From NCBI GenBank assembly GCA_905178155.1, contig CAJINV010000012.1, positions 3,343,144 through 3,407,143 on the forward strand: a stretch of DNA of 64,000 nucleotides. The letters run 5' to 3'. The position numbers were made by a program, and so were the translations under genes. The notes under the pieces were generated by a model that did not search any database, was not told the DNA's origin, and was given only the letters and a program-made list of their open reading frames with translations. This document shows positions 18,304 to 64,000 of the stretch, in pieces. This stretch comes from Amoebophrya sp. A120. Its lineage: Eukaryota; Protista; Dinoflagellata. Positions within the stretch are counted from its first letter, which is position 1. Every line of letters begins with the position of its first letter.

Positions 18304-19482
18304 AAGTGCCTCGCTTTTTCGGGATGTAACAGCCACTGATCCGGGTTGACTTGAAGCTGCTACCGCTTCAAGCATTTTCCGGCATGGAAAGTTCTGCGCT
18401 GCGTGCGCTCATTCTAGGCCCGGTTACCGGGGGGCAGGGAAATAACGCGGTCTGCGTGCCCGTGGTTGCGAGTTTGGGTTGCAGCTGCGCTTGCTTTGCA
18501 GGCTGTGTTCAGTCTGCTTTCTGTCTTCCCCTTGGGGGCAAGTGGGGCTGGGGCTGGCGCTGTTCCCCCCATTCATCCACCGGTGGTGGGGTTCTGGGGG
18601 GTCTTGCCCTGGGGGCCAGGTGGTGGTGGAGTGGGCCGCTCCCCGCTACGGAAGCTGGGCGCGGCCTGCTTGACCCAGCCCCAATAGGCGCGGTCCAACG
18701 GGCCGCTTGGGTGTGTGCTCTGGATAACACTCGGAAGGAACGCAACGAAAAAGATCCCCTCAACGTTTTCCCCGTCCTCTCGCGGCTTTCCTGCGGTCAG
18801 TAGTAAAGTCGGCGCTACGGGAGCGGGAATGAACATGTTGAACTCGTCCCAAAACCCGTTGAAGCTGCACGTCGGTGAAAACAAGAAATTGGATGTGAAT
18901 AAGTTGTGCAAGAAGTCTTTCTCACCACCTCCTTCTTTCAACGTGCCAGTAGAAAGTCCCATGTCATCAATCTACGATAATAAGTCTGCTGATTTCCTCG
19001 TGGATAGTCATAGTGCTAACCCGGAGCAGAGAATCAACAAGGGGCAAAGGGACGATGAGCAAGGACTTTGCTACAGCAACTGTATGTACAACGCCCGAGA
19101 TGTTGATGATGATGACGGTGGACTACTACAAGAAACCGTAATTGACACGACGACCAACAACACCAGCAAGAACATTCGTCGCCTGGTACAAAATTCCCTG
19201 CGGACGAGTGGAAATGTTGGTCCCGATTATACCGAAAACGATGATTTGCTACACTCTAACTTCTACGCGACGACCTCCTCCTCGTGCAACAAAAGTAGCG
19301 GAGAGCAGGATGAGAACAGCAGTTGTACGACGGGGACGCAGCTGCAAAATGAGCAAAGTACGAACGACCCCGTGATGTTTTCGACCGCGTCGCTGTCCAC
19401 TAACATTCCAAAATTACTCGATTTCGACGAAATCAGCTCCGAGAAAGCGTACCGGTCGAAAGCGTAGAACTATCCCTTCGGC

Positions 19483-30912: not shown

Positions 30913-33358
30913 ATGCCACCGCCCAACCTCGAGATGCCGACGACGAGTAATCGTCGGGATTTTAACCGGCAAATGCAGCGCAACGCGACCCTTGCGGCCC
31001 AGAATTACAGCAGCAACCGGCACCACAATAACTACCGCGGAGGTGGAACCACCCGAGGTGGTAACTACAATAATAATTACGGTAGAAACAATAACAACAA
31101 CGACCTCCGAACGGATTTTAACAGCAATGAAGAACAGAAAATCCAGATCAAGCCCGACGAGTACGATCCGAAGACGCAAAAAGGGCGGTGGAAGTACAAA
31201 TCCGAAGTCGGCTCCGGATCGTACGGAACGGTGTGGTGCGTGATCGACATGAAGGACGGGGAACCAGATGAAAAAAAGAAGACCGAGTATGCTTTGAAAG
31301 TCAGCAACTGGGTCCGGGGCTCGTCGTCTTCCTTCATGCTCCACCGCGAGTACACCATGTCGAAGCTAATCCATCAGTCCGCCTCATCATCTTCTACCGG
31401 GGGTGAAAATAAAGGGCATCCGCTGTTCATGAAGGTGTTAGAAGATCACACCTACTACAAGGACAACACGATGAAACAAGACTTGGAGTGTCAGGAGCCG
31501 GATTTTAAGGGCTGGAAGGGCAATTACAAACTGGACAAAACCACCTGGAAACCGGGGGAAAAAGTATGTTGTCATTGTTTTAAGGAACCGCAAACAGTAT
31601 AGCCGATAACCATCTGCAGCTCCACCGGGTAGAGACGGCCCCTGCTCAAAGCGTGCCGCTTCTTTTTGCATGAGTGTCGACGTAAATAAAGAATTATCAA
31701 AACTGCAACTTTTCTCAGGTATGCTACATTATCATGGAGTACCTGCAAGGCCACAGGATGCGCGGGAAAAAGTTGGACCACGGCTTCAACTTGCAACAAA
31801 TCCGGCAGATCATGGTGGAGTGCGCGGAGGGGCTCCAACATTTGCAGTCCCTTGTCCCTGAAAAGATGCCGCGCACGCCGAGCAGCTGCTTCGTCCACCG
31901 CGATATCAAATGCAAAAATGTCTGGGTCTGGAAGAGTGCGCGATTTGTCATGCAGCTTTTCCATGACCCATGAGGTCTGGAATGCAGGACCTAGCGTGAC
32001 AGATTCCGCGCGATCTCTCTCATGCCTATCCTGCATGAGCAACGCTCTCCCGGCTTGGTCAAAACTGGACGACTTTTGGTAATCATGCAACACAGATTCT
32101 TGCATGCTTCAGATTTAGCCTGACAAGTTGCATTCTTCCAGACCCAGACATTTTTGCATTTGATACGCGATTTCCGGATGGCGAACCTCTTCTGGATGGG
32201 CAGCAAGTCGCGGGAACACGACGCAGCGAACGGCCACATCAAGATTCTGGACTACGGGCTCATGTATCAAAAGGAAAAATCCCCCCTCCCCATATCAAAA
32301 CGAAGTTTCTGATGCTGGATTTGCGTACACAAATCAGATTTGTCTTGCTGGAGAGGACTGCAGGCCTATAATCAGCCTGAGCAGGGAGGTTTTCTGCTAG
32401 GCGCTAAGCATGGCAAACGCCTAGTCTGTAGGGCCAACAGCATCACAAACCGCCTGCAGAATGCGGCGGAGCCTGTGTAGTTTCGTTCCTGCAAGACAGA
32501 GATGATTTGAGGTCACAAATGAGCATTACAAATTTCCTGAGACGTGCCTCTTCGATATGGGGAGGGGGGATTTTTGCTTACGATATCATGGTATTCGCAA
32601 ACAGCCAAACGGAAAACAATTTCAACTCGGCAATACACATGCCGAACGCGTGTTTCGATAACTACTGGCTGCCGGAAGAGGCCTGTGGGGTCAGTCGGAA
32701 GGGGAATTTCAAGTCCCCGTACACGGCACTGGACATTTTTTCCTACGGTGTGCTTTTGATGGAGCTCATGCACCCGAACCGCGTGCAGACCTTCAAAAAA
32801 AACACCGACAGCGAGGATCGGAGGAAAAAGTTCATGAACGAAATCTACACGCGGATCCGGAACCGGGACGGTTATCTGCTGAAAACGCACGGAGTGATGG
32901 CGAAAGCGCTCGGACTGGGGGAAAAAATTTTCAAAAGACTGACGGATTCCGATCCGGCGAAGCGACCGGACATTTCATACTTGGTGGAGGAACTCCGAAA
33001 GGGGAAGGTGGTGCGGCAGGAAGCTGGTGTTGGAGCCGTTGTTGACGCAGTAGAAGGTGGTGATGTGTCGATCAACTACAGCATCAGCGGAGCCGCAACC
33101 GCAAGCAGTAGCAGCAGTTCCTGTGCTGCGGCATCTTCGGGCGGTGGTGCGCATGATACTCCCTCCAGCGTTTTTGGCACGTTTCTTGCGGAAAACGCGA
33201 GGAAAATCACGCCGCGGGGTCTGAACGAGGAACCGGTCAGGCCGGCGGGCGAAGTTGCGGACGATCCCAGGCCGGTGTATTTGCGGCAGAATGAGATTTT
33301 TTGCGATGTGATTTCGCAGTCCAGAATACGGAAGCTGAACGAGAAAGCAAATGTATAA
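30913..33358 (+). CDS. Ser/Thr protein kinase
   Basis: GSGSYGTV, YALK, IMEYL, HRDFRMANL, IKILDYGL, WLPEE, DIFSYGV and DPAKRP after removing GT-AG intron 31564-31718 and two introners. Confidence 0.9.
31904..32165. mobile_element. Introner family A inside the kinase HRD Asp codon
   Basis: DR CGCGA; removal restores HRDFRMANL. Confidence 0.93.
32265..32585. mobile_element. Introner family E (321 bp)
   Basis: TIR TATCAAAAGGAAAAATCCCCCCTCCCCATATC, DR TCATG; DYGLM-VFAN. Confidence 0.92.
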
Positions 33359-33455: not shown

Positions 33456-36400
33456 ATGGCGCCACTTAATAGTAAAAAGCCTTTCGACTTTTGGCAACAA
33501 ATATGTTCAGAAACAACCTGCAAATTTTTCTCACAGCTTTCCGACAAGCGGTTTTGGGAAACGTACCGTGCCGGCTTCATCCAATCTTTTCTGGAGATAG
33601 AAAAGCGCGTGCAGGCCAACGAGGTCCGAAAAACGAAACCAGACCAAGCACATGACACCGAAGTCGCGGAATACGAGATGGGCGAGTACAGCCAGCTCTG
33701 CGCGCACTTCCTTCTCGGCATCCATGACGAAGATGAGAAGGAGCGGGATGCGGTGGTGGACTTTTGGGCGTTGCCTGGCAGCGACATGGACGCGCGGAGA
33801 CCGTCGGCCGCGGGCTTTTCCAAACGCTCCACGGGGAGCAAAAGCAGCAAGGAAAGACTGAACAAGAAGTCCCCGGAACAAGAGGAGAGGAGAAGAAGGC
33901 TGGAAGCGTTTTTCACCGAGGAATCCAAGCTCTGGGTCGCGCTAGCCCTGACAAAAGAGCTGGACAAAAGATTTCCCAAGTACCAGGAGAAGAACAAAAA
34001 CAAAAGCGAGGCTTTCTTCTTCAACATCAAAAATTCCGGAACTTCGCACTACTCGGCAAAGCAAGTCGCGGTTTTATCGCCCGAAGTTTCCGACGGAATC
34101 CGGGAAATCATCCAAAACTGCAAAGATGATTCGGGAAAGAGAAAGAAGAAAATCGAAGAATCGTTGCAGCACTTCACGTATGAAATGCAAAAATGTCTGG
34201 GTCTGGAAGAGTGTGAACTTGTCATGCTGTTTTTGGACTCTAAAAAAATTTGCATTGCATGACCAGCAAGAAGGGTGCAATTTGTGCCTCACGGACAGGG
34301 CATTTCTCATGCCGAAGGTGCATCAGGAAGCTCTCCAAAAGTCTGCGATGCTACGTCATGCATTACAGGCATCATGGGTCATGAGAAATATGCATGACAA
34401 ATCTTGCATTCTTCCAGACCCAGACATTTTTGCAATCCATATCACCGGTCGAGGGTCGGACACAAACACGAAATCGCGGTCTTCCCACACATATCCTGGG
34501 CAAAAGCATTGTACTCGTACTAATCGCAGTCATGCAACACAAACTTCTTTTTCAAGCAAAATCAGCACGACAAATTCCATTTGTCATGCTGAGCTAATTT
34601 GTGTTGCATTACTACGTCTACGAGTGCGATATTTTTGCAGTGCATGACACAAATGAGGCCATTCTGATCGCGAACAAGCATGAAAGGGTGGAACCGGTTT
34701 ACCAGGAGCTGCTCGAACGATACAACTCGGACGATTACAACCCGACGAAAGAGGAGGAGGCCCGGCTGTCCCGCGCACTGCACGCAAACAAGCTGCTGAG
34801 CAAGGACTTGCACGGCAAGGCGAACGATTTGATGGCGCGGTACACCACGGACATTGCCTGGATGAAGCCAAACGGAGGGGCGGACAAGTGGAAAGTGATC
34901 CAGGAAGAAGCTTTCCACGCAGGGATTTTTGCAAAGCTGGAGTTGCAAGAAGTTCCGGAGCAGTTCAAAAGTGCTTGTGTGGACGAGAAGCTTGACCTTG
35001 ACGACGGTATTAAAGGCAAATCTTCTTCCTGCTGCATTGCGAAGTGCATCGACCTATGAAATGTAAAAATGTCTGGGTCTGGATGATTGCCAGGTTTGTC
35101 ATGCACATTTTGCATGACTCCTGATGTCTGTGATGCATGCCCTAGCATCACAGATTTTGTGAGGGCTTCCTGATGCCTATACCGCATGGCAAATGCTCTT
35201 TCCGTGTAGCAAAACTTGGACTCTCTTTGCTGCTCACGCAATGCAGATTTTTTTAGAATCCAAAATCAGCATGACAAGTTGGATTCTTCCAGACCCAGAC
35301 ATTTTTACATTTGATACGACCTGCTCGCCCGGGTTGAAGAGGTGTACAACAAGCTGCTGAAGAAGCTGGTTTATGAACTGCAAAAGTATCGTACTAGTAG
35401 TAATTGCAATACAAATTATTTCCTCAGCAATGAGAAATAAGATTTCTAATGCGGGTTTACCTTAGGAAAAAAATTTGTAATGCGTGAATGCAATTACTAC
35501 GACACGACTAGTACGATACTTTTGCACAGGATATGGTGAAGAACTACGCGAAAATACAGCCTGCCATGGGGGAATTCAGAAGAAAGCTCAACCAATACGT
35601 AAAGCAGCAAAAGTTGGAACAGAGTGAGAAGTTACGGGCGAACGTGGAGAGGTTCAAAACCACCATCAACAACTGGATCCAACGGGAATCCAACTACTTC
35701 AACGATGTGAATGCTTTGATGGAATTAGCAGCGGAGGAGTGCCCGGAGGCGGTTATTCCGAGGGTGGAGGATTTAGATCATGCACATCAACAGAATCCAT
35801 CCACACAGAACTCCAGTTTTTCCGCACTTGGTGTTGTTCCTGGAGACCAAAGCACCAAGTCCTCCATTGCGTCTTCCATCGTTTCGGACCTAAATAGCCG
35901 TGTGGTAGAGCCATGGTCACGGGAGGAAGACCCGCTGTTGGTCACGTACGCTTACGGGGGAAGCAGAATCTTCACGACAGATGCTAGTGCGGGCAGTTCT
36001 TCAAGTGCAACGAGTTCTAGCAGCATCAAGTACTTCCCCCCACAGCCGGAGCGGCGGCACTTGCCGGGAAACAAGGGCAGTTGCAGTGTCTGGCTACTCG
36101 GAAAGGCTTTGAAGGATATCACGACCAAAGGTCGCGACGTGGAGATTTACCGCTGCGGAGGGGACTATGCATTGCAAAAGTAACGTACTGGTGTAAATTG
36201 CATTACAAATTGAAATTTTCGCAAGAAGAGAAGTTGAATTTGTAATGCTGTTTTACCTTTGGAGGAAGATTTGTCATGCATATTTACAATTAGTACGAGT
36301 GCGATACTTTTGCACAGCATAGGGACGAGGAGGTAGGGATTGGAGGGATAATGAGCGGAGGCGGTGGTACATCAACTCCGGCAACCTCTTCCTCGAACCA

Positions 36401-42400: not shown

Positions 42401-45400
42401 GGGCGGAAAGCGCAACGGTGGCGGCGTTTCAAGGGGAGCACGCGGTGAGGCCCAGCGACGAAAACAAGATTGTTGAGGATAGCAGTTCTTGTGGAGAGCA
42501 GGGCGAGTTCTTCACCGAGCACCAAATTGCGGAACTGACCAACTTCCTCTGCAACCTCCACGAGCGACTCATTCGGGCCCAGGAGAAGAGGGCGCGCCGG
42601 AGCGATACGTACCAGCGGACCGCGATTGGGCTGATTACCATGGGCATGAAAATTGGCCAGCCGCCTGCGATGGTCAGTCCGAACTATATTTCCTCGGCCG
42701 CTGCTGGTAGTGATGGTCTTCTTGGACAGCAACAGAACAATAGCTCTAGACGCGCCGGTGGGCCAGGCTTTGCCACGAGCAGCAGCAGTTCCGCACTGCC
42801 ACATGGTCCGAGCGGCGTGCCGGTCTTGTCATTAGCCAACAACAATCCTGGCAGCAGTCCGGTGAGCCGCCAACAACTGGAAGCAGTAAGACAACAACAA
42901 TTGGCCAACGTATCGCCAGCAGTCGTGCACGGGCAGTACGACAAAAGATTTGGCATTTCCCCGGGGGAGCAGGCGGTTTTACGGGAACAAATACCCGCGC
43001 CGGGGATAAAACCTCCAAAGATGAAAAATGCAAATGCGGCGAAACCAAATCATCCAAAGGCAAAAGCTGCCGCCTCTCGCCGTGCGTCAACCGCTTCTGT
43101 CGCCGCTGGTGCGCCTGTTAGTAGTAGAAGGGGGTCAAAGGAAACGCTGAAGCAGAAAATGGAACGACAGTACAGGGATGAGCTGTACGGAATAGAAAAT
43201 GATTCGGACGAGTGGCTACCTCCGAAGAACCAGAGGAAGCCTTCGAAGCAACCCAAGGCAGCGGCTTCGAAGGCTGCGAATAAAGCGGGTCTTCTACCCG
43301 CCGCGAAGCATGGAGCGGCGGCCAGGAGACCTTCGACAGCTGTAGGGGGACCGAATACGCGAACCAATCAGCAACAAGCAGCCCCGCAACAGCTCGACGC
43401 GTCTGTGCTGGATGGAGATGAGTTGTATCAGGAAGAGGAGAGTAGTTCCTACGGTTTCGTCACGTCGAGAAAGCGCGTGCTCTACCACGAGTCACCTTTC
43501 AAGGAAAACATTCAGCAGCCAGATGCTTTTCACATCGCAGCGACAGATGAAGAAAATTTTGTTATCAATGGTGCACAGCAGCAGCAGCAAAATCCGGCTT
43601 CTGCCCGAAGCGCAGCTGGTCTTGTGCCGTCAAAAACAAAATCAGGCGGGGCCGCGGCAGCTGGTGGTAGCAGTAGCAGTAGTGGCGGCACAGGACCGAA
43701 TACTTTTTCCAGTGTATCTTCGAACCAACTACAAGCAGCAAGTAAAAACAGGCTGCCTCGTGCCAGTGTGCAACCGCAGCAAAACGACCTGGGCAACCAC
43801 AACCAGCGCGGTCGGCCTTCGGCCGCCGGCGGTGGCGGTCAGCAGCCATTGATCCGAGGGCCGAAGGCGAGCCGGGTCGCTGCACATAATGGCCCGCCTG
43901 TCACAACAAGCGTACTACCAGGAGCAGGCACAACCGGGAACAACATCAAGCCAGCTTCTACACCACGAAGTCATAACCAGACGAGAAACAAGCGGAGCAC
44001 GGCGGCCGCTCGGAACAACAACAAAGATGCGAACTGTGTAACAGATGAAGAGGTCGCAAACCTACCACCGTTGATTCTCCCAGATGTGAACAGGATCCAG
44101 TATCCACAGCAGCAGTACCCGCAAGTGTTCGACAATCATGGCAACCCGGTTCATTCCCCCGAGGCGCCACATTACGTGGCAGCACCAAATTATGAACTGC
44201 ACAAGTATCCTACTCGTATAAATGCATTACTAATTTCCTCAGCGTGACAAATAAAATTTGTAATGCGGATTTACCTCGAAAAGAAACTTTGTAATGCATG
44301 ATTGCAATACGAGTGCGATCCTTTTGCACAGGATACAAATCGCAGAGGGGCGAGACAAAGCAGGGCCAGCTTCCAGCCCCAGTATCAACTGTAAAAATGT
44401 CTGGGTCTGGAAGAATTCATGTTTGTCATGCTTGTCTGGCATGAGTCTTACATCTGTCATGCACGTTACCCAAGAGCTCCGTTTTTCTGTGATGCAGAAG
44501 CGCTGTTTGTCATGCAGAATAGGCAACACCTAGGAGCTCAGAAACTTGTCATGCTGAGCCAGCATTTGTAGCCTCATCATGAGACGCCGCCCAGCATCAC
44601 AAGTTTCCAGACCCAGACATTTTTACTTTTGATACCCAGTCTACGCATAGTATAATCGGAGGTCAGCACCAACAGCCTGGAATGCTTTTGAGTGGTGGTG
44701 CGAATTATCCAGTTCCGCAACACGTCCAGGCACAACTGCGCGCTCCGACGCCGCGAGGCAACAATCCAAGTACAAACTTCATGATGCAGCAAAACAATCT
44801 TCGTCAGCGCCAGCACGTCTCCTCGCCAAAGCTGAAGCGGCAGCGGGTTGAGTCTGAAGATTCGACCGCGGAATATCGGCTGTTTGAGAACAACCAGCAA
44901 TTTGTCGATTTTGATAAAGGAACAGAGGTGGACCAGCATCTTCATGCTGCTGGACAAGGACAACCACAGGCACAGACACAGCAGGACAATCGACACCCGC
45001 GCTCTCTTTCGCAGCAATCGCAATCGGAACAGTCTGAGCCAGTGTGGGATCCAGATTTGATGGGAAACAAGAGCCTCCTGGAGTTGAAGCCAAGGTCGAA
45101 AGAAACCAACGATGGGGATAATGATGAAGATAGCAGCATGATCAAAGTGACACAAGTGGCGTTTAAGCAACCGAGAACAGCAAGGGGTGGAGAACAGAAT
45201 CATGCGGCGGTGCAGAATCTGCAGCAACAATCTGCGTCTTCGTCGAGCCGAAATACCGGTTATTTCAGCAACCAGACCCACCTCCCCGGTGCGACGAGAA
45301 ATGGCACCATGCAAGGCGGAAGTAGAGCCGGCGGCGCTACGCCTCGCGTTGGAGGTACAAGGCCTGGGGGTTCTGGTTTCACGATGAACTCGAACCATCA

Positions 45401-47218: not shown

Positions 47219-49958
47219 ATGTCGAAGCGCACCGCTGATCAGCGTGATACCGCCGCCGACACTACCGAGGAAAAGATGTACTCTTCTGGATACAGCAGCA
47301 ACCAAGGTAGCTACGGCTACAGCAACGGAGGAGGTTACGCTTCTCAGGCCATGTACCAGCCGCAGCAGCAGTCCGCTCCGGGCCCGGATTGGTCCAAGGA
47401 CTGGCGGTATCAACTGTAAAAATGTCTGGGTCTGGAAACTTGTGATGTTGGGTGGCGTCTCATGATGAGGCCACAAGTGCTGGCTCAGCGTGACAAGTTT
47501 CTGAGCTTCTAGGTGTTGCCTATTCTGCATGACAAACTGCGTTTCTGCATCACAGAAAAATGGAGCTCTTGGGTAACATGCATGATAGATTTAAGAGTCA
47601 TGCCAGACAAGCATGACAAACATACACTCTTCCAGACCCAGACACTTTTACATTTGATAGGCGGTCCCCGGCTCCGCAGATGACCCCGTCCACCACCGGT
47701 TCTGATCAGGATCGCAACTCGCCTGCGACCAAGCGCCCGCGTCACGGAACTGCTGGCAACATGCAGGACCAGTGTCAGCACACGGTTGAGCAGTATATGA
47801 AGGAGAACGAGGTGGAAGTCCGCAACTACGACGCGAAGAACATGTGTCTCACCTGGGACGTATGCATTGCAAAAGTATCGTACTAGTATAAATTGCATCA
47901 CAAATTTTGGCAAGAAGAAAAGGGGAATTTGTAATGCTGTTTTACCTTAGGAAGGAGATTTGTCATGCATATTTGCAATTAGTACGACTACGATACTTTT
48001 GCACAGGATAGGACGACTGCCCCTTCCCCGCGGAAATGACCCAGAAACTCCGCAACTTCCCGAAGCCGTCTGTGATCCAGGCTGCCGCGTGGCCGATCGC
48101 GGTCAGCGGGAAGAACCTGATTGGTATTGCGGAGACCGGAAGTGTATCAAATGCAAAAATGTCTGGGTCTGGAAGACTTGTAATGCTAAAAGTGAATGGT
48201 AGACGCACTGCAATACGCAGCTATGCATGACAAATTTTTTGGCTCCCATGTCTTACGTACTCCGCATGACAAACTGCGTTTTTGCATGACAGGTAAGAGG
48301 GCCTTTTCGTGCCAATGCAACGCAGATTCTGGAGTCATGCCAGACAAGCATGACAAACTTGCATTCTACTTCCAGACCAGGACGCTTTTGCATTTGATAA
48401 AGTGGAAAGACGCTCTCCTTCCTCCTCCCCGCGGCGATGCACTGCCAGGAGAAGCAGCGCTCCGGCCGGGGAAATGGGGGGTACTACGGATCCAGCGGTC
48501 CCTACGCCATGGTCTTGGCGCCGACCCGGGAATTGGTATTATAGGATTTTGGCAAGAACATGCATAGAAAACGTTTACATGTGAACGTGCTGCTGTACTA
48601 GTGATTGTCATCCCAATAAATAATGCGTACGTAAGTACACCACGTACAGAAGAGATCATATTGGCTTTCGATACGAAAAATGAAAATGTCCTCACGACAA
48701 CATCAGAATCGTTATATAACAAAAAATGGAAAACAGGTCCAGCAAATCGAGCAGGAGTGCAAGAAGTTTACCACCCTGCGTTCCGCCAGTCTTGTCGGTG
48801 GTCTCCCGAAGGGCCCCCAGATCGGTGCTCTCCGCCGCGGGGTCGACATCATCATTGCCACCCCCGGTCGTCTGTGCGATCTGGTGGACATGCGGGTGTG
48901 CGATTTGTCTCAGGTTGACTTCTTCATCTTGGACGAGGCGGATCGCATGTTGGACATGGGTTTTGAGAAGGATCTCCGGAAAATCAACGGTATGCTCACC
49001 CGCAACAAGCAGACCCTTCTGTTCTCCGCCACCTGGCCCCGAGAGGTCCAGCGGTTGGCGCAGGACGTGATCGCCGAGGCCTACGGTGTCCGCACCCCGG
49101 AGGTCCGGATTGGCGGCGCCGGGGACGCGAACCTCCGCGCGAACCCGAATATCAAGCAGACCGTGCACATGGTGAATCATTACTCTGAGAAGAACAGACT
49201 CCTCGGGAACATTTTGGACGAGTTGAAGCGGGAAAACAATGGCGAACACCCATTGATTCTGGTCTTCTCCAAGACGAAGAAGGGGTGCGACCAGCTCGCG
49301 CGGGACATGCAGTACTCGATGCGGGTGCACGCACAGTCCCTGCATGGTGACAAGTCCCAGCCGGAGCGTGACTGGGCGCTGGAGCAGTTCAAGACGGGAA
49401 GGAAGCCGGTCTTGGTCGCGACCGACGTCGCGGCGCGCGGGTTGGACGTGAAGAACGTGAAGTGCGTTATCAACTACGACTTCCCAACGAACGTTGAGGA
49501 CTACGTCCATCGCATCGGGCGGACGGGTCGTGGTGGCGCGTTGAACGGAGTGGCGCACACCTTCTTCTGCGAGAAGGACTGCCAGTATAGAGTTGTTTTG
49601 TGTTTTTGCATGACAGGCAAAATGTGTACTTCGTTTTTTGCATTACAGACTTTTTCGAATCGCGGCTTCGAAAATTTTGCTCCGTGTTGCAAATCAAAAC
49701 GAAAATCGAAGCAATTTGCACAACAGGAACCCGGGCAAGTGCGCTCGCGAGCTGACTCAGATCCTGAAGGAGGCCAAGCAGGAAGTCCCGCACGAACTCC
49801 GCAACGTCACCTCATCCGGCTCTGGAAAGGGCTTCGGCAAGGGTCGTGGATTCGGTGGCGGCAAGGGCGGTGGCAAGGGAAAGGGCGGCTTCGGAGGCGG
49901 TGATCGATTCGGTGGCGGTGGCTTTTCGTCCGGTGGCTTCGGCGGCGGAAGATGGTAA
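47219..49958 (+). CDS. DBP2: DEAD-box RNA helicase, DBP2/DDX5-like
   Basis: Q motif PSVIQ, AETGSGKT, LAPTREL, ATPGRL, LDEADRMLDMGF, SAT, LHGDKSQ, HRIGRTGR and a Gly-rich tail; 3 introners plus GT-AG introns 48536-48736 and 49585-49726. Confidence 0.9.
47408..47659. mobile_element. Introner family A (252-bp subfamily)
   Basis: DR GGCGG; frame restored. Confidence 0.92.
47861..48010. mobile_element. Introner family B
   Basis: DR GGACG; WD-DCPF. Confidence 0.92.
48145..48399. mobile_element. Introner family A inside the helicase Walker A motif
   Basis: DR AAGTG; removal restores AETGSGKT. Confidence 0.94.
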
Positions 49959-54514: not shown

Positions 54515-57500
54515 ATGACTACCCCCGCTGCAGCACCACCTGCAAGTGCAGGGCAACAGCAGCAACAGCCCCAACAACCCGCCCCAGCAGTCCCCCAACC
54601 TCTCCCCGTGACGACTTCCACCGCCGCTGCAATAGCACCTCCTCCACCTGCAGTAGCCAATACGAAGGATAATCAGGACGACGTCGGCCCATTGGACAGT
54701 ATCTCCAATGTCGGCTCTTCCGCCACCGCTTCCACCTCCTGGCAGGGAATCGACTTCTCTTTACGTCCTCCAAAACCGCAACTTGCGTGCAACGTCGAGA
54801 ACTACACCTACAAACCGTGGTACGCGTGGACGCGCGAAGAGGTGGCGTCTGACAGTTCTATCAAGTATTTCAGAAGAAAAATAAAAGGCGTCGACTACGG
54901 AGATGATGACGATGAGGATGACGAAGGCGGAAACACGAAACATTCAACAAAAATCACCGCCGTTTCCTCCCTCGAGACCAGTCACGAAATCGCGCGGGAA
55001 AGGGAGAAACAGGAAGAGGAGCTGAAAGTGAAGCAGATGCTGCGGCGAAGCAGCTCGATTTCCTCTTTTGTCAACCCGATAGAGCTTTTTGGAAGGAGGA
55101 ACAGCAGCAATCAACTGGTGATGCCGCCGAGCGGAGCAGGAGATGCTGACAAAGACAAGAAGGACAAAAAATCGGCGGTAAAAAACGACTCCTCCGACGG
55201 CTCGGTTTTGAAGCCTTCTTCTGCAACCGAGCAAGAGAAGAAAGACGGCCAACCGGCAAACCCGTCCGACGACACCACAAAATCGGATTCCAATGACAAG
55301 AAGGAAGAAGAGTTTTCAGACCATCCGCCCACCGTCGTCCACTTCGTTCTCGACGTGAACAGTTGGTCGGTGGAAACCGTCGAGGCGCGGGAAATCCTGC
55401 ACGCGAAATTCACCTTCCACTGGTACTGGTGCGATGAAAGACTGATCGGCTACCCGCCGGAAAAAGATCTGCCGAAAAATGTCTGGCGGCCGGAAGTGAT
55501 GGCGTGCGCGGGCGTATGAGAGTGCACAACTCCCCCTCGAGCCCCTCGTTTGTAGGGCATGGGCAGCAATACAAGCGGCGGCAACAGTGCAGGTTTTGAA
55601 TGACAAATCCACCTCGGGTCGTAGTGCTGTTTGGGCTGCCAGAATCTGTCATGCAAGAAGTGCCAAGAGGCAACGGGCGCGTTTGGTAATTAGCATCACA
55701 AATGAGGTGGAGGGGGAGTTATGCGCGCTCATAGGGGGTGAAGGTGGACGAGAAATATGAGACGATGCCGAAGTTTCAGTCCGGCCCGCACCAGAAATTC
55801 AACGGAGAGCTGGAGTTGTCGCTAGTCGCGACCTTGGAGCCGGGGTACGACATGCAGAAGGACATCCAGCGGCTACGGGTGTTCCCCTTCGACAGTCTCC
55901 GGTTAGATTTATCCGTGTCCTTACGACAGTGCACCACTCCCCCTCCGCCTCATTTGTATTGCATCACCAGCAATGCAAACGCCAGCGGCCCTGGAGCCTG
56001 TGCATGACAAATCTATGTGCCTACTGTAGTACTGCTTGGGCTTTCGAAATTTGTCATGCAAACCATGCCACAGGCAAGCGGCTGCATTTCGAATTTTGGA
56101 AGACAAATGAGGGGGAGGGGATGTTGTGCACTTTCATAGCCCTCGCACAACCTGAAGCGGTTTGACGGCGTGAGCGAGATCCAACTCAGGTTAGATAGGA
56201 AGAATCCGGGGGGCAGGAAGGACAAAGGACATCCGCACCAGCACGTCAACTGGATCTGCACGAATAAGAACAGCGGGGAATACGAGTGTGTGGAGTTGAG
56301 ATACGGGTTGGGGAGGTTGACGTGGAAGGAAAAAAGGATTCCGCAGTTCTTGTTCTCCTTCTCGTTGAAAAGAACCGCGAATTACTACGTGTTGAAGGGA
56401 ATAATACCGCTGTATTGCTCCATGTTGTTCGGCGCCATGAATTATTTCACGGAGGTGAATGACTTGTCCACGCGGCTGCAGTCGTTATTAGCGCTGTTCC
56501 TCACCTGTTTCGCGATTCAGTGGACGTTGTTGGAAAGATTGCCGAAGTTCCCGTTTCTAACCGTTTTGGACAATGTCGCGTACTCCGTGGTGATCGCGTT
56601 GTTTTTAATGGGCTCCGGGTTCTGCATTGCTTATTACACTTGCAGGGAGCGACTCGTGATCGAAGACAGTGAAATCGTCTGCGGGAGCTCCACTAGCGGG
56701 TCCGCCAGCAGTCCGTCGATCGGACAGAATTCCCCCTCTGGCGGCTCCACCGGGCAAACAACGACCTCGAACGCGTGTGCAACCGCGAACAGTCAGTCCG
56801 GGGTGATGACTACGAAAACGACGAAGGATTTTTTCGTGCGGTTCGACTTGGACAAGGGGGAATTAGTGGATAAAATCTCCATTTTAGTCGTCGCCGTGTA
56901 CGTCTTGATCTACTGCATCGGCTACAAGTTTTTTTACACGGTGTTTTTCAGTAAGAAAACGCGGAACGGGGGAGCGTACAGAGCGTGGCGGGACGGCGCG
57001 GATTTGCGGAATAAGTATCAAATGCAAATATATCTGGGTCTGGAAGAATGCAAGATTTGTCATGCATATTTCTCAGGACCCATGATGCCTGTACTGCATG
57101 ACCTAGCATCACAGACGTTTGGAGGGCTTTCTGATGCGCCTTCCGCATGAGAAATACCCTGCCCGTGTAGTACAAATTGGATCCCTCTTGCTGGTGATGC
57201 AATACAAATTTTTCTACAATCCGAAAACAGCATGACAAGTTGCAACCTTTCAGACCCAGACATATGTGCAATGCATAATAAGTATTTTAAACCGATTCGG
57301 GCTTGGTGTCTGAAGCTAGATGACGCGTTCTTCCGCGGAGGAGTGTTTTTAGGGATGGGCCGAGGCCAAGGTCGCGTGGCCGCACAGGTCGACTTCATTC
57401 GTCGGGGTCCACCACCGAATGCGGAAACAGGACGCGTCGTCCGGGTTCACCTTTCTTGTGTCGTGCCGGATAAAAGTACCTCCAGGGCAGCCCTCGGCAT

Positions 57501-60500
57501 TGTCCTCGTTGTGGTCGGATAATTTAGTCATGGGCCAGACGAAAGCCGTTTCACTGTACTTCATCTGTGCGGCAACGTGCAAAAACCAATCTGGTGTTTC
57601 GGTTGGATGTGGCACGGAGAGGACGGCCCCGTCGTTATCGCTTTTCCAATCCCGGGGGCATCTCTCCGTATAATCGTAGTCAAACACCAGCACCGCGGCC
57701 GGGTTACCTGCAAACGTCCGGGTCGTGAACGCGTTTACCACCCAGGTGTCGCACTTCAAAACCCGGGTGCTGCTCTTATTCCTATTTCTTGTTGTACTAC
57801 CTGTCGCAGCGACTTTAGTCACGACGTCGTCAATACTTTGGTTTTTTGTACCAGCGGGGGACGGGTTTGGCGTTGGCTCCGGAGGTTCGGCGGTGGTGGA
57901 TTTTTTCTGTTTCTTCGACATCCTGTCTCGGTTGTTGGGGTTGCGGAGGACAAACGATGAAATCGGGTCAGTCACATCAGTTGAAGCTTACACAAAGACG
58001 ACAAAAACTACAGGGGGTTAGACTTATACTCCTCACCTTACCATGCTGAAAGAATCTGCCAGCTAGGTCATTGCAAAAGGGAAAAGAAAAAACCCGAGGA
58101 TCAATTACAATTACAATTTTTCTACGATGCCAGGCTCCTCCAGCAAAAATGGAGATGGAACGCTACGTACCTACGGCGTCAAACAACGACGTTCTTCTCC
58201 ACGACCAGTAGCTGCAGCTGCAATGACCACATCACAGCGGACGAGAAGGTCTTGTCTATCGATTTTTGGTGTCAGTCTACTTCAGTACATTGGTTGGAGA
58301 TTAGGTGGTAGGGGTTGTTCCGAATCGAAAAAATATTACCGCATCTGCTATTTGGTCTGGTGTTCTGCTGCCTGCTTGACGGTCGAATTTGGTCCGAGGG
58401 TCTTTCTACGCGGTGCTTCTTGTAGTCGCGCGTGATTTCTCTCCTTTCGTCGAAGGATTCCAGAGACCGCACGCGCGGAATGCAGTCCCCGCCCGCGCCC
58501 ACTACGATCCCGCAGGAGCTGCTGCTTTTCGAGCTGGTGCCCAGTGTCACCTCGGACGCGCAGCTCGTCATCTGGTGCCCGACCACGTGACAGCTGCCTG
58601 ACTGACCCGGCACAACGCCGCCACTTCGCGACGACACGCCGAGTTGCCGCGTGCTGCTACACCTACTCAGACCGTTGCTATTACTGGAAGAAGGACCCCC
58701 GGGACCGCCTATGCCGCTCGTTGTGCCCGAGCTAATGAACCAGACGGGTTCTGGATGTTGTGCCCGAGCTAGATGACGCGTTCTTCCGCGGAGGAGTGTT
58801 TTTAGGCATGGGAAAAGAATGACAGAGTCTGTGAGGTCTCTTTCATGCCTATCCTGCATGAGAAAATCTCTCCCAACTTGGTCAAAAGTGGACAGCTTTT
58901 GGCACTCATGCAACACAGATTTTTGCATGATTCGGATTTAGCATGACAAGTTGCAATCTTCCAGACCCAGACACTTTTGCAATCCATAAAGAAGGAAGTG
59001 ACAGACTTGAATATCGACTTGCTGGAACTGATTTCCGCAAATTCTAATGGAATCAATAGATGAGGATGACGAATGGTGAAGATGGAGAAAAGCATCAGAA
59101 CTATTGAGACTCGCACAACTTCGAATCCGAATGTACGTTAGGATTTTTGCTGAGGCCGACCGCCGATCCTGAAATAGAGCTCGTTGACACAGACAACGAA
59201 GATGACTTCGATATGTTGCTGGGCGCAAGCTCCTGCGGGTACGATGATCTGGATGATCGCAATTGTACTTCTGAACGGTCGTCTGGTTCATCACCAGTAG
59301 AAAAGATAAAGCTACAAGAACTCCCACCTGCGATGCATGTTGACCACACAGGAGAGGTTGTAGAAGTAGCTCCTCTCGAGGAGCCAGAGGCAGAAGAGGG
59401 GCTCACGGGGGCTTCGCCTGTGGAGGTCGTCGCACAGAAAACTACTACACATCTACTTACCACTGGGGATTGCGACTTCGAGAACAAAATCAAGATCGAA
59501 AAGTCTTCTCAAGGAACAAACTGCTCTTTACTTCTCACTACTTGCTGGAGGCAAGGAAAAGTTCTCTCGGTGCCGTCGTGAGACAAATTATCGGATTGGA
59601 AATTGATCACTACAAAAGAAATGGATCACTCATCTTCGAGGGGAGTAGTAGAGGGCTGTCGGTTGTGCGGCCAGACGTCACGAATCGCCAAGATTGCTGA
59701 CTAAATACGCGCTCAAAAATTTGTGATCATGACATCACTGCCCCACGACTGTTGATGTTGAAGTTGATACTAATGGGCAGGCGCAATACAGATTGATATT
59801 TTGGAAAAACCAAAAAATGAAACAGACTTTCGGCACAGGAGCTTTCATCTTTTCTGGGTTTGAATGATTCTCCGAAACTGAAACTGAAACGCTGCTGAAA
59901 ACATCAACACTTAACTAGACTCACATAGTGAGCGCTGATATACATAATAAAACTACAACCCCTATTGCAACTGCTCAACTGCTTTTCCTAGAATATATAT
60001 TTTTATTATTTGGCTGCAAGACCCGGTCTCTTTGATTTGTCTCTTAAAAGTTCTCTCGTCCCCTTGATTTTCGCTTTGAACAGCAGAGTTGCTTCTGACT
60101 TTGTTACCCGAGTAATTTATTGATTTCTCTTCGTTAGAGTGCTTCACTTACAGACGGTCTCGATAAAAATGAAAACGTTCTCCTTTGTTCGTCATGTCCT
60201 TGCAACGACCTCCGCCGGTGGCATGTTTTTCAACTTTCCTGGAGAAGTTTTGGTAGCTTTGTTGAGTGCGGAAATTTTTCAGACTACTCCAAGCACCACT
60301 AGCTACTTTCCCCAAACAGTGGTGGCTGTGCAATTTAGGTCTGGTTTACAGCCCGGAAGCAGCAGCGATGGTAGCAAGGGGAATAGGGGAAGAGGACGAG
60401 TCAGCGGGCCTGGAAGACGCGGAGGGCGGTCGCAAAGATTCCTGTTGAACAGGGAAATGCGGGACTACGTTGAGAACGGCAACCTTTCAGGCGCGAAGGG

Positions 60501-61607
60501 TGTTTTTGAAGATATGAAACAGATAGGCGTGAAGCCGGACGTCGTCAGCTACAACACGTTGCTGGGCGGCCTTGTGTTTTTAGGCATGGGAAAAGCAATA
60601 GATGACGCGTTCTTCCGCGGAGGGGTGTTTTTAGGCGGAAAGCTTTCCGGACGCGGAAGGTGCTGCCATTCTTCTGGTGCATTTCTCCCCCTGCCGCCGC
60701 TCTGATGTCTGCATCGGCAGAGTCGGATGTTGAAGATAGCAGATAGACAGTAGCTGCGTTTGTGATTTTCGGTTTGGTCAATCCAACAAGTCCATCCGAG
60801 CCCGCAGGCTTTGTCTTTGGGGGCTAATGAGGAAATATCGCCAACATGGAAACTGCCCCGCGTGGCTTACGCCATTGCGGAAGTTTTTCCTCATTTGCCT
60901 GGTATTTGAAAAGATGTCTGCTACCAACCCTACCAGAAAGTATCGCGCGATGCTAGCGAACGCTATTACAGGTTCTGGCAGTTTCTGGGTAGAGGTATCC
61001 CGCGATAAAGCGGAGGGCTCAGGTCTGTACCTAAGTAACGAACTTGGGGGCATTAGGAGTTTTCTTTGTCTAGTTTGTCTTTTGCGCTGGGATTCATTTC
61101 TCACTGACATGGTGGCCGAAGTTTCTACTCGTATCCGCAAAAGCAAGCTCGAGTATGGCACCAAGCGAGTGCTGCAGGTGTTTCTGCAGTCCGCACACTT
61201 TCGCAATTCGCGCATGACAAACAGGGGCAATACTAGCCTTATCCCGCTTCCCGTGTCAATAAATAATGGGTTTTCTGACTTATAACTAGTCATGGTAGAG
61301 ATTTTTACGCTTTGGGGCAACTTTCGCAATTGCACGCAACCACCACCAAAGCTGGCGCTCACAGCTTGAGGAAAAGCTTTCTGTCGATGGGATCATCGGA
61401 CAGATTGAATTAATCGCAGGGGAGTGGGGATCTAGGACGCAAAAAATGCGTCTACCGCCCCAGAGATGGGGCGAGACGCCCACATGTTTGAAGCTAGATG
61501 ACGCGTTCTTCCGCGGAGGGGTGTTTTTAGGGATGGGAAAAGAACTGGAGTGGGACGGGGTGGAGACCATGAATAATGAGACAGAACCCGTGATTGTGAG
61601 TTTTTAG
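54515..61607 (+). CDS. Pentameric ligand-gated ion channel-like protein (Cys-less Pro-loop type); last exon interrupted by 57313-61490
   Basis: FHWYWCDERL, VWRPEV, LRVFPFDS, LKRTANYYVLKGIIP, LPKFPFLTVLD and 4 TM helices; probable original tail KLDDAFFRGGVFLGMGKELEWDGVETMNNETEPVIVSF* at 61491-61607. Confidence 0.75.
55515..55733. mobile_element. Introner family D
   Basis: DR GGGCG/GGGGG; frame restored. Confidence 0.88.
55922..56138. mobile_element. Introner family D
   Basis: TACGACAGTGCAC...GTGCACTTTCATA, DR GTCCT/GCCCT; frame restored. Confidence 0.85.
57016..57277. mobile_element. Introner family A
   Basis: DR ATAAG; reverse orientation relative to 34179-34441. Confidence 0.9.
57355..57921 (-). 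pseudogene. 5' fragment of a PhzF-family (DAP-epimerase-like) gene
   Basis: VNAFTTRTFAGNPAAV, SETAFV, RIRWWTPTNEVDLCGHATLASAH, then cut at repeat copy 1. Confidence 0.85.
58820..58988. mobile_element. Truncated family A introner (right part only)
   Basis: Starts mid-element at repeat copy 2 and ends TTCCAGACCCAGACACTTTTGCAATCCATA. Confidence 0.85.
60169..60573 (+). pseudogene. 5' fragment of a pentatricopeptide-repeat (PPR) protein gene
   Basis: GNLSGAKGVFEDMKQIGVKPDVVSYNTLLGG, cut at repeat copy 3. Confidence 0.75.
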
Positions 61608-62469
61608 AAGTAGTAGAGGAGGTTCTTGTTGACGTGGTCACCGCAGCTGTAGGCAGAGTTTGAGTTACTTTCACAGCAGTTCTTGCGTGTCCATGCCGTC
61701 AGCAGCACGAGAAGTTGATGCTTTTGTTTCGTTTCGAGAAGTTGGACTTGAAATTGAAGAGAGCGCTCTTGAGAATTTGTGATCTTGTTTCAAGAACACA
61801 GAAGTAATGACGTTTCTAGAAAAGAAAAAGTTCTGACATTCTTTTCGAAAGAAAAATGACGATCTGAATCAGCTTCAGACGCAATCACAGCAGCGCTCTA
61901 GCGACCGAACCTAAATCCTGTTCACCACGAGCAATCGGTCGTGCTTGAAATTTCTACTAGATCGTACTTTCCTTCGGTCATATCTCTGTGAAAGTCGACT
62001 ACACGTAAAAGAGGATCTTTAAATCGTGGCTCTTTCATCAACACCATGAAGATAGAGCTCAAGAGAACTGTCCTGGATCAACATCCCAGCAAAGTGAAAC
62101 GCGATGGATCAACATTCCAGCAGAGTGAAACGCGATCTAAAACAATTTGTTGGTTCAAACGCATCTTGATTCGGAGAGGAAAAACCATTTCACGAATGAT
62201 CTGGATCAAATCTAAATGTTCTAAAGATCTCGACACTGCGATGATCGCGATAGACAAGCCAATCAATGCCACTCGCTGAGCTAAAAACACGACCTTGTTC
62301 CAAAATCCATATGCCACTACTATCACCTCCCCGTCCTTCTTTCACAACTACAGGGAAACTAGAGTGGTAGAATACTTTTTGGTATTCTGCTTCTATTGTC
62401 TGTACCTGGGTACATACAAATCATTGAACCTGAATCAGTACTTCAAACCCTCCACAAACCACACACAAA

Positions 62470-64000
62470 ATGGCCACTGCGCGCCCGACTGTGTCCGTCT
62501 ACCTGGCGGAGAAGCCCGGTGAGACCGCGAAGAAGGCCATCTGCCTGCCGCAGGTGTTCTCCGCCCCGTTGCGCCCGGACATCGTCCGCGTCGTCCACAC
62601 CAACATGAACAAGAACAAGCGTCAGGCTTGCGCCGTCAAGAACGAAGCTGGTTACGACACCGCCGCCATCTCCTGGGGAACTGGTCGCGCCATGGCCCGT
62701 ATCCCGCGTGTCCCGGGTGGCGGTACCCACCGATCCGGACAGGGTAAGAAGAAGATGTTTTGCTTGCTTTGCATAGCTACAGAGATGTGGTTGTTGTGTT
62801 TCTAAATTCCGCGTGACAGGCTTTTGATTATAAGCAACGGTTTTTGCATGACACCGAATTTCAATTTCTATTGCGAATGTCGCACCAACATCTATGTCGT
62901 TCTGTCTTGCTGATCTCGCTTTATCTAAATCTAAATCCTATAACACTATCAGGTGCTTTCGGTAACATGTGCCGTGGTGGTGGTATGTTCAACCCGACCA
63001 AGACTTGGCGCAAGTGGCACCGCAAGACCAACGTGACCCAGAAGCGTCACGCTCTGGCCACCGCTATCGCTGCCACCGCCGTCCCGGCCCTGGTCATGGC
63101 CCGCGGTCACCGCATCGAGGAGGTATAGAGATTTTCCTTAGCACGTCACATTACTCATGCGTTTCTAAATCTAAACCTGCTTCTAGACGGAAGCTCGATG
63201 TCCAGTCCTCGCGCTCTACTTGATATCTGTCATGTGTAAATGGCCATCCATTTTTTCACTATCCTCAGGTCCCGGAAATGCCGTTGGTTGTCTCCGATGA
63301 GGCTAACAAGATTGAGAAGACCAAGTCCGCCGTCGCTTTGCTGAAGGAACTCGGCTGCACTGCCGACCTCGACAAGGTCGTGGATTCAAAGAAGATCCGT
63401 GCCGGACGCGGAAAGGCCCGCAACCGTCGCTACGTCATGCGCAAGGGACCGCTGGTCGTCCACAACATGTCCAAGGAGGCCATGACCACTGGTATTTCTG
63501 CTTTTGATTGTGCTGTCTTCACGCGTGGTTCTTCGCGTATGAGTGATTTTTGCTGGAATTTTCTGGTGCTTCTGAGAGTTGTCACGGGAGCCTGGTGCTG
63601 TCGAGAGATTTATCGGAAATGATCCCACTGTGTCCTTATGATGACACAAACTTTGGGATCAACCATCTGATTCTGAAGCATGGTGTCCTCTCGCGAGGAT
63701 GCCGCGTTTTAGCAATCTGTGATTGATTCTAAACTTTTGACAAGCATATGTCTGATTCTGTAATAATAAACCGTCTGTCATACCGTTCTCTTCGCTATGA
63801 TGACACTTTACGGATCAACCATCGGACCTTGCGTCAGCTTTGGGTGAATCTTTAAATCATGACAAGCATATGTCTGAACTTCTCTTCTTGCCATCCAGCA
63901 TGACAAAGACGTCGTTGTATGTCGTAAACCGCAAGACAAATTTAGAACTTCAACCCCATAATCCTCGTTTCTATCCACACAAAAACCACAGGTTCTTCCC
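62470..64000 (+). CDS. RPL4: 60S ribosomal protein L4 (uL4), runs off the window; exons 62470-62743, 62953-63122, 63269-63491, 63992-
   Basis: [35 protein letters not shown]; GT-AG introns. Confidence 0.95.
63638..63755 (+). ncRNA. Intronic box C/D snoRNA, SNORD27/snR74-like (copy 1)
   Basis: Box C ATGATGA, D' CTGA at 63667 and D CTGA at 63752; guides GGATCAACCA and GACAAGCATATG are complementary to the conserved 18S 5' end. Confidence 0.8.
63797..63877 (+). ncRNA. Intronic box C/D snoRNA, SNORD27/snR74-like (copy 2)
   Basis: Box C ATGATGA, the same two guides, D' CGGA and D CTGA at 63874. Confidence 0.8.

What the first reader, a model, noticed from the sequence alone, without database searches (positions are those of the whole stretch)
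57311..61607. Repeat-spacer capture array in the last exon of an ion-channel gene: three unrelated genomic fragments separated by ~50-bp copies of the gene's own sequence
Seen: the channel frame reads ...AWCLKLDDAFFRGGVFLGMG at 57313 and the same DNA recurs at 58767, 60574/60599 and 61489. After the last copy it continues KELEWDGVETMNNETEPVIVSF*, so deleting 57313-61490 rebuilds an intact gene. The spacers are 57360-58766 (inverted 5' part of a PhzF gene plus upstream DNA), 58820-60573 (part of an introner, a probable gene 3' end, intergenic DNA and the 5' end of a PPR gene) and 60637-61488 (unidentified). They are unprocessed genomic DNA without poly(A). Junctions show microhomology (ATGGG shared with PhzF Ala-His codons), a 15-bp local duplication (GTTGTGCCCGAGCTA at 58720 and 58757) and a permuted copy. 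Inference: iterative templated insertion at one recurrent break site, ~35 bp from an introner, giving a repeat-spacer layout with kb-sized self spacers.
Basis: partly seen in the sequence, partly recalled or inferred. Interest (0 to 1): 0.8.

Follow-up and report, generated by a model that had tools for sequence, protein, structure and literature searches.

The report
Stacked DNA captures at one site
In a marine parasite, three kilobase-sized pieces of other genes sit inside the end of an ion-channel gene, separated by short copies of the gene's own sequence; they were likely patched in by repeated DNA-break repair, and a cut-short mobile intron carried in with them is still spliced out, apparently by using a look-alike of its lost end in one of those copies.

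Summary
The array is real. Four near-complete and one partial copy of a 22-53 bp stretch of a probable pentameric ion-channel gene of Amoebophrya flank three genomic pieces (1407, 1754, 849 bp). Contigs from one DNA run and two spliced-RNA runs cross or touch 6 of 7 junctions, and an orthologue confirms the stranded 23-codon tail. It is not CRISPR-like. Copies vary in length, junctions carry microhomology, fold-back and local-duplication scars, and shared variants point to several rounds of insertion with target duplication. First, the pieces differ from their resident relatives mostly at silent positions, and the repeat copies differ only silently, so the DNA likely came from more than one haplotype. 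Second, the repeat holds a look-alike of an introner end. The 5'-truncated introner in piece 2 is spliced out one base before it, with the geometry of intact introners. That is a natural test of how a reportedly U1-less spliceosome picks 5' sites. Whether the look-alike also draws the breaks is open (about 3% chance coincidence; breakpoints are not at its edge). No read spans the whole array; no second strain was available.

The parts
54515..57522 (+). Probable pentameric ligand-gated ion channel gene as now expressed (764 aa; last 54 aa read from piece S1; stop TAA 57520-57522); three introner introns
   Evidence: P0001 is 100% identical to the exon query and equals the spliced read-through frame; intron joints in X3/X6; orthologue P0002 hits bacterial and animal pLGIC structures weakly, best E 2.5e-4; no Pfam hit
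57016..57277 (+). Intact introner (262 bp, terminal inverted repeats, 5-bp direct repeat ATAAG), ending 30-40 bp before the duplicated stretch
   Evidence: skipped in X3 and X6
57307..57359 (+). Copy 1 of the target, still in the reading frame; variants CTG, X=A (57342), Y=G (57354)
57360..58766 (-). Piece S1 (1407 bp, inverted): 5' part of a PhzF gene (57921 down to about 57356), intergenic DNA, probable 3' part of an upstream gene (open frame 58766 down to 58275), and a 32-bp end with a 15-bp local duplication and a small hairpin
   Evidence: Pfam; 5 of 5 differences in an X6 contig are silent in the minus-strand frame; hairpin
58767..58819 (+). Copy 2 (X=A, Y=C); holds the introner-end look-alike at 58803-58817
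58802..58992 (+). New non-canonical intron (TT..GA): begins 1 base before the look-alike in copy 2, ends 4 bases after the 3' inverted repeat of the truncated introner
   Evidence: joint listed as 57348->58993 in X3 (depth 143.8) and X6 (7.8), absent in DNA run X1; copies 1 and 2 are identical there, 57348+1453=58801; geometry test
58820..60573 (+). Piece S2 (1754 bp): 3' 169 bp of an introner, downstream gene or UTR sequence of unresolved frame, intergenic DNA, first 135 codons of a PPR gene (ATG 60169) fused in frame to copy 3
   Evidence: the fused 178-aa frame is a public gene model, P0091
60574..60635 (+). Copy 3a (right part, Y=C, 60574-60598) joined head to tail to copy 3b (left part, X=G, 60599-60635); unit 51 bp, in frame
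   Evidence: bridged in X1, X3, X6
60636..61484 (+). Piece S3 (849 bp): starts with a perfect 14-bp palindrome; member of a small family with relatives 11-14% apart; holds a 73-bp high-copy insert (61230-61302) missing in the relatives; likeness to relatives ends at 61470; function unidentified
   Evidence: no Pfam, Rfam or Atlas identity
61485..61537 (+). Copy 4 (TTG, X=G, Y=G), continuous with the native downstream sequence
   Evidence: X1 contig 61502-63400
61538..61607 (+). Stranded native last 22 codons and stop of the channel gene
61608..61856 (+). Native 3' untranslated region; RNA contigs stop at 61837 (X6) and 61856 (X3) while DNA goes on
   Evidence: weak hint; both runs from one study

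Best explanation
The array is likely the scar of three or more rounds of break repair at one re-breakable 50-60 bp site: each round likely left staggered ends, filled both in (duplicating 22-46 bp of the target) and joined them across a 0.85-1.75 kb piece of genomic DNA by microhomology end-joining, with DNA that probably came from more than one haplotype. Shown: the layout, the junctions, the scars (4-base microhomology inferred from a contig break, a 15-bp local duplication, a 14-bp palindrome), the pairing of variants (copies flanking one piece are identical or nearly so), read-through transcription, and splicing of the truncated introner at the look-alike end. Inferred: staggered breaks, order of rounds, end-joining, the haplotype mosaic. 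Because each repair regenerates the target twice, the site can break again, and once the first insertion cut off the tail the later ones were probably neutral. What makes the breaks is not established; mis-recognition of the introner-end look-alike by the introner-moving nuclease is my leading guess (about 1 in 4).
For: Flanking pairs: copy1/copy2 1 difference in 46, copy2/3a 0 in 22, copy3b/4 0 in 37; X splits the copies 2:2 and Y marks the pair around S2, which one pass over one template cannot give. Left ends cluster at 57307-57317 (3 of 4) and right ends at 57353-57366 (4 of 4) in copy-1 coordinates. Scars: only 2 perfect 14-bp palindromes in 64 kb, one at the copy3b|S3 junction; 15-bp duplication at S1|copy2; the X1 contig from copy 1 stops 26 letters into S1, implying the resident PhzF shares the last 4 bases of copy 1. 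Unprocessed DNA: part of an introner, two gene-intergenic-gene pieces, mixed orientation, no poly(A). Haplotype signal: 5 of 5 differences silent in one frame of S1 (p about 0.005 after 6 frames), both listed indels in open frames are in frame (3 and 6 bp), 3 of 3 differences between repeat copies silent in the channel frame (p about 0.009 without transition bias), and S3 relatives 11-14% apart while flanking pairs differ by 1 in 105 (p about 1e-4). Precedent: tandem duplications from breaks with protruding ends, and repeated rounds because the target survives (PMC5730883, passages; PMC8355091, abstract); templated and fold-back insertions at breaks (PMC11724301, abstract and introduction). 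Outcrossing is proposed for this strain (bioRxiv 2025.04.10.648098, passages).
Against: No simple order fits every letter: copy 4 has the original left flank while copies 2 and 3a have the original right flank, so an intact template or later trimming is needed. The variant pattern rests on three letters. Donor sequences were not in hand: differences come from 40 of 86 and 40 of 71 listed rows, and contigs can merge near-identical copies. In the PhzF N-terminal part only 5 of 12 and at 58664-58700 only 3 of 6 differences are silent; in S2 0 of 4 are silent in the longest open frame. Diverged relatives may be paralogues of a lost donor and not alleles. No breakpoint lies at the edge of the look-alike end (57349/57350). 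One junction (S1|copy2) is only indirectly supported and no record spans the array. A published study found no transposase in this strain (PMC7789003, section read), though a later one reports integrase-like frames in one introner family (PMC12130899, passages).
Confidence: 0.55

Rival explanations
1. One event of serial template switching (FoSTeS/MMBIR type) in a heterozygous cell: a nascent strand left the gene three times, copied 1-2 kb elsewhere, returned about 50 bp upstream each time, and finished on the other homologue.
For: Left and right arms differ at 2 silent sites in 53 bp, as for two haplotypes; clustered return and exit points; microhomology scars; all three pieces differ from resident relatives.
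Against: Three haplotype states are needed (A-G, A-C, G-G at X and Y), not two; Y=C is in both copies around S2 but in neither outer copy.
Confidence: 0.2
2. Three independent single-insertion alleles arose at a hot spot in different lineages and were stacked by unequal crossing-over in the short duplications.
For: Each piece has its own matched pair of flanking variants; silent differences between copies look allelic.
Against: Needs crossovers in 25-50 bp of homology; the copy3a|3b joint is a head-to-tail duplication joint and not a clean crossover.
Confidence: 0.1
3. A site-preferring retroelement endonuclease and reverse transcriptase copied unspliced or polycistronic RNA into the site, each time with a long target-site duplication (class 1 TSIP-like).
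For: Long variable duplications flank each piece; LTR and non-LTR elements are reported in this strain (PMC7789003, passage).
Against: No poly(A), mixed orientation, intergenic DNA and part of an intron retained, fold-back scars; class 1 TSIPs are defined by poly(A) and a TTTT/A site (PMC5110952, abstract).
Confidence: 0.06
4. A programmed, CRISPR-like acquisition array that stores and uses spacers.
For: Repeat-spacer layout; the array is transcribed.
Against: Copies vary from 22 to 53 bp, spacers from 849 to 1754 bp, junctions are scarred, the repeat is ordinary coding sequence conserved as protein in an orthologue, RNA contigs run through the copies, no second array in the 64-kb window.
Confidence: 0.02
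5. Mis-assembly or chimeric amplification.
For: No record spans the array; a published assembly of this strain used gap closing of short-read scaffolds (PMC7789003, passage); X1 may be the source sample.
Against: Junctions stand in contigs built separately from DNA and from two spliced-RNA samples; copies carry distinct variants; pieces differ from their relatives; an RNA-only splice joint links a copy to S2.
Confidence: 0.02

Closest known systems
Repeated tandem duplications at re-cut staggered breaks (Cas9 nickase pairs; PMC5730883 passages read, PMC8355091 abstract read)
   Same: Target duplicated by repair of protruding ends; target survives, so second and third rounds give multiple repeats, sometimes with templated inserts
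   Different: Here natural, heritable, nuclease unknown, and each round carries a kilobase of distant DNA
Distant templated insertions at double-strand breaks (yeast dna2, rad27, RPA mutants; cancer genomes; PMC11724301 abstract and introduction read)
   Same: Copies of distant genomic DNA, several pieces at one break, microhomology and fold-back inversions at junctions
   Different: Those pieces are mostly 50-300 bp, identical to an intact donor, and (in the parts read) not described as separated by copies of the break site
Templated sequence insertion polymorphisms, TSIP (PMC5110952, abstract read)
   Same: Germ-line insertion of distant sequence; class 1 has target duplications, class 2 has repair features
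   Different: Here target duplication without poly(A), a mix of the two classes, and three at one site
Introner elements of Amoebophrya (PMC7789003, sections 11 and 16 and passages read)
   Same: Inverted ends starting TAT with an A run, short direct repeats, non-canonical splice sites; 28 such elements found in this window
   Different: The intron at 58802-58992 is a chimera: native 3' end, 5' end supplied by host coding sequence that begins TAG, no matching direct repeats
Alternative (reversed-ends) transposition with re-replication in maize (PMC4270019, abstract read)
   Same: A right end and a left-end look-alike face each other 72 bp apart; duplications plus break repair
   Different: Composite insertions carry transposon termini at their borders; here no junction lies at a terminus

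Membership tests
CRISPR-type acquisition array | Repeats of constant length and sequence | tested here: not met
   22-53 bp, one head-to-tail pair
CRISPR-type acquisition array | Spacers of uniform short length with clean joints | tested here: not met
   849-1754 bp; scars at junctions
CRISPR-type acquisition array | RNA cut at the repeats; linked integrase | tested here: inconclusive
   RNA contigs run through copies but cannot show ends; no genome held; window frames listed, not searched for integrases
Templated insertion at a DNA break | Insert copies distant genomic DNA whose donor remains | tested here: inconclusive
   Relatives exist for most of S1, the left of S2 and S3 but are diverged; none at 85% for 60421-60573 and no close full-length PPR or long PhzF protein found
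Templated insertion at a DNA break | Microhomology, fold-back or local templated filler at junctions | tested here: met
Templated insertion at a DNA break | Dependence on end-joining enzymes (Ku/Lig4 or Pol theta) | not testable with these tools
   No genome held
Class 1 TSIP / retro-copy | Target-site duplication | tested here: met
   46, 22 and 37 bp pairs
Class 1 TSIP / retro-copy | Poly(A) tail and processed template | tested here: not met
   No A tract at any junction; intron part and intergenic DNA kept
Amoebophrya introner (for 58802-58992) | Removed from RNA at non-canonical sites | tested here: met
   Joint in X3 and X6, not in X1; contigs only, 30 letters on the short side
Amoebophrya introner (for 58802-58992) | Inverted repeat between the two ends | tested here: met
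   11 of 15 letters; best of 1617 upstream positions, profile score 9.0 against 1.4 for the next
Amoebophrya introner (for 58802-58992) | Direct repeat at both ends; repeated as a whole element | tested here: not met
   Left flank does not repeat AAGAA; only the 3' 169 bp belong to the family
Alternative transposition product | Breakpoints at transposon termini with a short target duplication | tested here: not met
   0 of 8 copy ends at 57349/57350 or at 57277 equivalents
Pentameric ligand-gated ion channel (host gene) | Sequence likeness to solved pLGICs | tested here: inconclusive
   72 PDB sequences at E up to 1, best 2.5e-4, nearly all of the 60 shown are pLGICs; no Pfam hit; no fold run

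The most novel reading that the evidence does not exclude
The introner machinery reads any look-alike of its inverted end: the spliceosome uses it to set 5' splice sites without GT or U1, and the mobilising nuclease nicks near it. Because each repair duplicates the look-alike, the site keeps capturing kilobase pieces of a mating partner's DNA: a self-renewing capture site in a eukaryote, of which this genome should hold more.
Probability: 0.12. Interest if true: 0.85.

Novelty: new variant of a known kind. Interest (0 to 1): 0.6.

Why it matters
Three reasons. (1) It is a natural, heritable counterpart of the repeated cut-and-duplicate footprints seen with engineered nickases, with whole gene pieces in between; it replaced a conserved protein tail and made a PPR-channel chimeric frame. 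(2) How this organism picks 5' splice sites is an open question: U1 is reported missing and over 60% of introns are non-canonical (PMC7789003). Here an introner that lost its 5' half is spliced exactly where host sequence best mimics the lost end, which gives a precise, testable rule (start 1 base before the inverted end, stop 4 bases after). (3) The silent-site pattern is genomic evidence, indirect, for mixing of diverged haplotypes in a parasite whose sex has not been seen directly.

Tried and rejected
No whole genome was held, so no direct donor search and no genome-wide scan. Two metagenome scans for the channel gene found no relative (0 of 407 and 0 of 210 pattern matches). No holder is on record as RNA; X3 and X6 are taken as RNA because they skip five introns that X1 keeps. 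The search of protein representatives was never run. PhzF search covered only proteins of 372 residues or more and PPR only 238 or more; neither gave an Amoebophrya donor (weak negative). S3 stays unidentified. I first read the X6 differences as a second strain; rejected, since the five differences predict a merged depth of 65-71 for the X1 contig and 68.9 is seen, so they are likely the resident relative. Reading TGA as Trp in a plus-strand frame at 58426 was considered and dropped: the minus-strand frame is open and makes all five differences silent. Splicing of the whole array (copy 1 to copy 4) was not seen: X3 and X6 contigs run unbranched from copy 1 into S1, and no such joint is among 15 of 104 joints shown; contigs drop rare forms. 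A hairpin between copy 2 and the start of S2 (-18.9 kcal/mol) and the central 8-bp palindrome of the repeat were noted but not tested against shuffles. Earlier scan notes held nothing for this genome or sequence. Ten paper searches listed no description of this locus or of such an array; the library lacks most subscription papers, and no supplements were read, so the splice geometry may be in the supplementary figures of PMC7789003 or in a 2023 introner paper seen only as a reference.
Full report
Setting. The exon 56140-57015 is 100% identical to a 764-aa protein annotated in Amoebophrya sp. A120 (P0001) and 58% identical to P0002, whose cluster holds an Amoebophrya sp. AT5.2 protein. P0002 matches pentameric ligand-gated channels weakly (best E 2.5e-4; no Pfam hit). 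No genome was held, so outside evidence comes from contigs of public runs: X1 (keeps introns, DNA) and X3, X6 (skip five introns, so RNA; one study, two samples). X1 may be the source sample and all three are probably one strain.

The observation. In order: copy 1 (57307-57359), S1 (1407 bp), copy 2 (58767-58819), S2 (1754 bp), copy 3a (60574-60598) and 3b (60599-60635), S3 (849 bp), copy 4 (61485-61537), then the native tail. The 40 codons from 61485 align with the end of the orthologue (20/39 identical, E 4e-13), so 4178 bp were added inside the last exon. The public gene model reads from copy 1 into S1 and stops at 57520-57522.

Is it real? Of 7 junctions, 3 are bridged by 31 or more letters on both sides (copy1|S1: X3 57324-58380, X6 57319-58380; S2|copy3a: X1 59623-60628, X3 58993-60628, X6 59597-60628; S3|copy4: X3 61275-61518, X6 61274-61518), 2 by 30-31 letters (copy3a|3b; copy3b|S3, X3 60606-61257), 1 by a 46-letter loose end (copy2|S2, X3), and 1 only indirectly (S1|copy2). 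X1 also shows copy 1 followed by 26 letters of S1. Tables were cut (24 pieces shown in each call, 9207 and 64 more not shown). No record spans the array. Summed X1 depth over the repeat is 155 against 41-50 for single contigs, which fits about four copies. RNA contigs cover all three pieces and stop at 61837 and 61856, a weak hint that one message runs to the native end.

What the pieces are. S1 is inverted and holds the 5' part of a PhzF gene, intergenic DNA and an open minus-strand frame 58766-58275. S2 starts inside an introner (86% to 31997-32158) and ends in the first repeat of a PPR gene, fused in frame to copy 3; this chimera and a frame in S3 are public gene models (P0091, P0092). S3 is unidentified. 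All are unprocessed DNA without poly(A).

Donors are not identical. X1 and X6 contigs show relatives with 11 substitutions and a 3-bp gap in 57736-57841, 5 in 58351-58663, 6 in 58664-58700, 4 and a 6-bp insert in 59336-59405, and 28 of 261 and 22-23 of 168 in S3. The intergenic part of S1 shows about single depth at 90% likeness and 60421-60573 at 85%. The five differences at 58428-58605 are all silent in the minus-strand frame (p about 0.005 over six frames); 3 of 6 and 5 of 12 are silent in the other two S1 groups; in S2 0 of 4 are silent in the longest frame, whose status is unclear. A dead copy drifting from its donor would not be biased to silent sites. Flanking repeat pairs differ by only 1 in 105 letters, far less than S3 from its relatives. 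I infer that pieces and copies come from more than one haplotype; lost paralogues remain possible. Cross-breeding between strains is proposed for this organism (10.1101/2025.04.10.648098, passages).

History. X (57342) is A in copies 1 and 2 and G in 3b and 4; Y (57354) is C in 2 and 3a and G in 1 and 4. Each piece therefore has its own matched pair, as for separate insertions with target duplications of 46, 22 and 37 bp, plus one 51-bp in-frame head-to-tail joint. The order cannot be fixed: copy 4 keeps the original left flank and copies 2 and 3a the original right flank. Junction scars are those of end-joining: a 15-bp local duplication, a perfect 14-bp palindrome at 60636 (one of 2 in the window) followed by an 8-base inverted copy of the repeat, and a 4-base overlap with the resident PhzF inferred from the contig break.

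An introner-end look-alike. A script found 28 introners in the window (one overlapping call dropped from 29). A profile of their ends scores the repeat's stretch at 61528 at 7.2 and the Y=C form at 58803 at 9.0; 40 of 55,333 free positions and 24 of 898 60-bp tiles reach 7.2. It matches the 3' end of the truncated introner at 12 of 15 (copy 4) and 11 of 15 (copy 2) letters and fits the published pattern, TAT plus seven letters plus AAA (PMC7789003, section 11), with one mismatch. X3 and X6, not X1, show a joint listed as 57348->58993 with no ambiguity; copies 1 and 2 are identical there, and copy 2 (58801) has the better look-alike (9.0 against -4.8). The rule 'start 1 base before the inverted end, resume 5 bases after it' lies within the observed range for 3 of 3 intact introners of this gene (the rule was drawn from them, and the ranges are 3-10 bases wide) and predicts both ends of the new intron exactly. 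58803 is the best of 1617 upstream positions (next 1.4). An unspliced form also exists in X3. Limits: contigs only, 30 letters on the short side, flagged 'between: not known'. If confirmed, the 5' site is set by the inverted end, by pairing or by a protein, without GT; this bears on the splicing question raised by the reported loss of U1.

Does the look-alike cause the breaks? A 2.7% coincidence, plus an intact introner 30-40 bp away (3.8%), is suggestive. Against it, no copy end lies at the look-alike's edge, and products of alternative transposition carry termini at their borders (PMC4270019, abstract). I leave it as the leading guess, about 1 in 4.

Comparison. The closest precedent is repair of staggered breaks, where duplication keeps the target and further rounds give multiple repeats (PMC5730883, passages; PMC8355091, abstract), combined with distant templated insertion (PMC11724301, abstract and introduction; PMC5110952, abstract). 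It fails the tests for a CRISPR array and for a retro-copy. FoSTeS/MMBIR naming rests partly on recall and partly. Ten searches listed no report of this locus or layout; supplements were not read.

Verdict. Real; a new variant of a known kind; interest 0.6, carried as much by the splicing experiment and the haplotype signal as by the array itself.

Noticed in passing
window 61230-61302: 73-bp high-copy element (X1 depth about 1800) inside S3, absent from its relatives, which have one letter in its place; not of the TAT introner type
   Followed up: partly
window 60169-60702: Chimeric open frame: PPR 5' part fused in frame through copies 3a and 3b; annotated as a protein (P0091) and covered by RNA contigs
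   Followed up: partly
window 57352-57987 (minus strand): The captured PhzF start and its upstream DNA point antisense into the channel's last exon; could give antisense RNA; strand cannot be told from contigs
   Followed up: no
window 55515-55733, 55922-56138, 57016-57277: Three introner introns with GT..GG, non-GT and GT..AA-type ends that all fit one positional rule; two have a mismatch between their 5-bp direct repeats
   Followed up: yes
window 13000-19000: Strongly T-rich plus strand (AT skew down to -0.5) with 99-bp (12919-13198) and about 350-bp (17634-18311) tandem repeats; may be a repeat or mobile element
   Followed up: no
window 24079-24500, 34179-34646, 44191-44641, 47408-48399: Nested, adjoining or overlapping introner copies of several families
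   Followed up: no
window 62061-62136: 31-bp tandem repeat between the channel gene and the ribosomal protein L4-like gene (62470 onward; name recalled from the sequence, not from a call)
   Followed up: no
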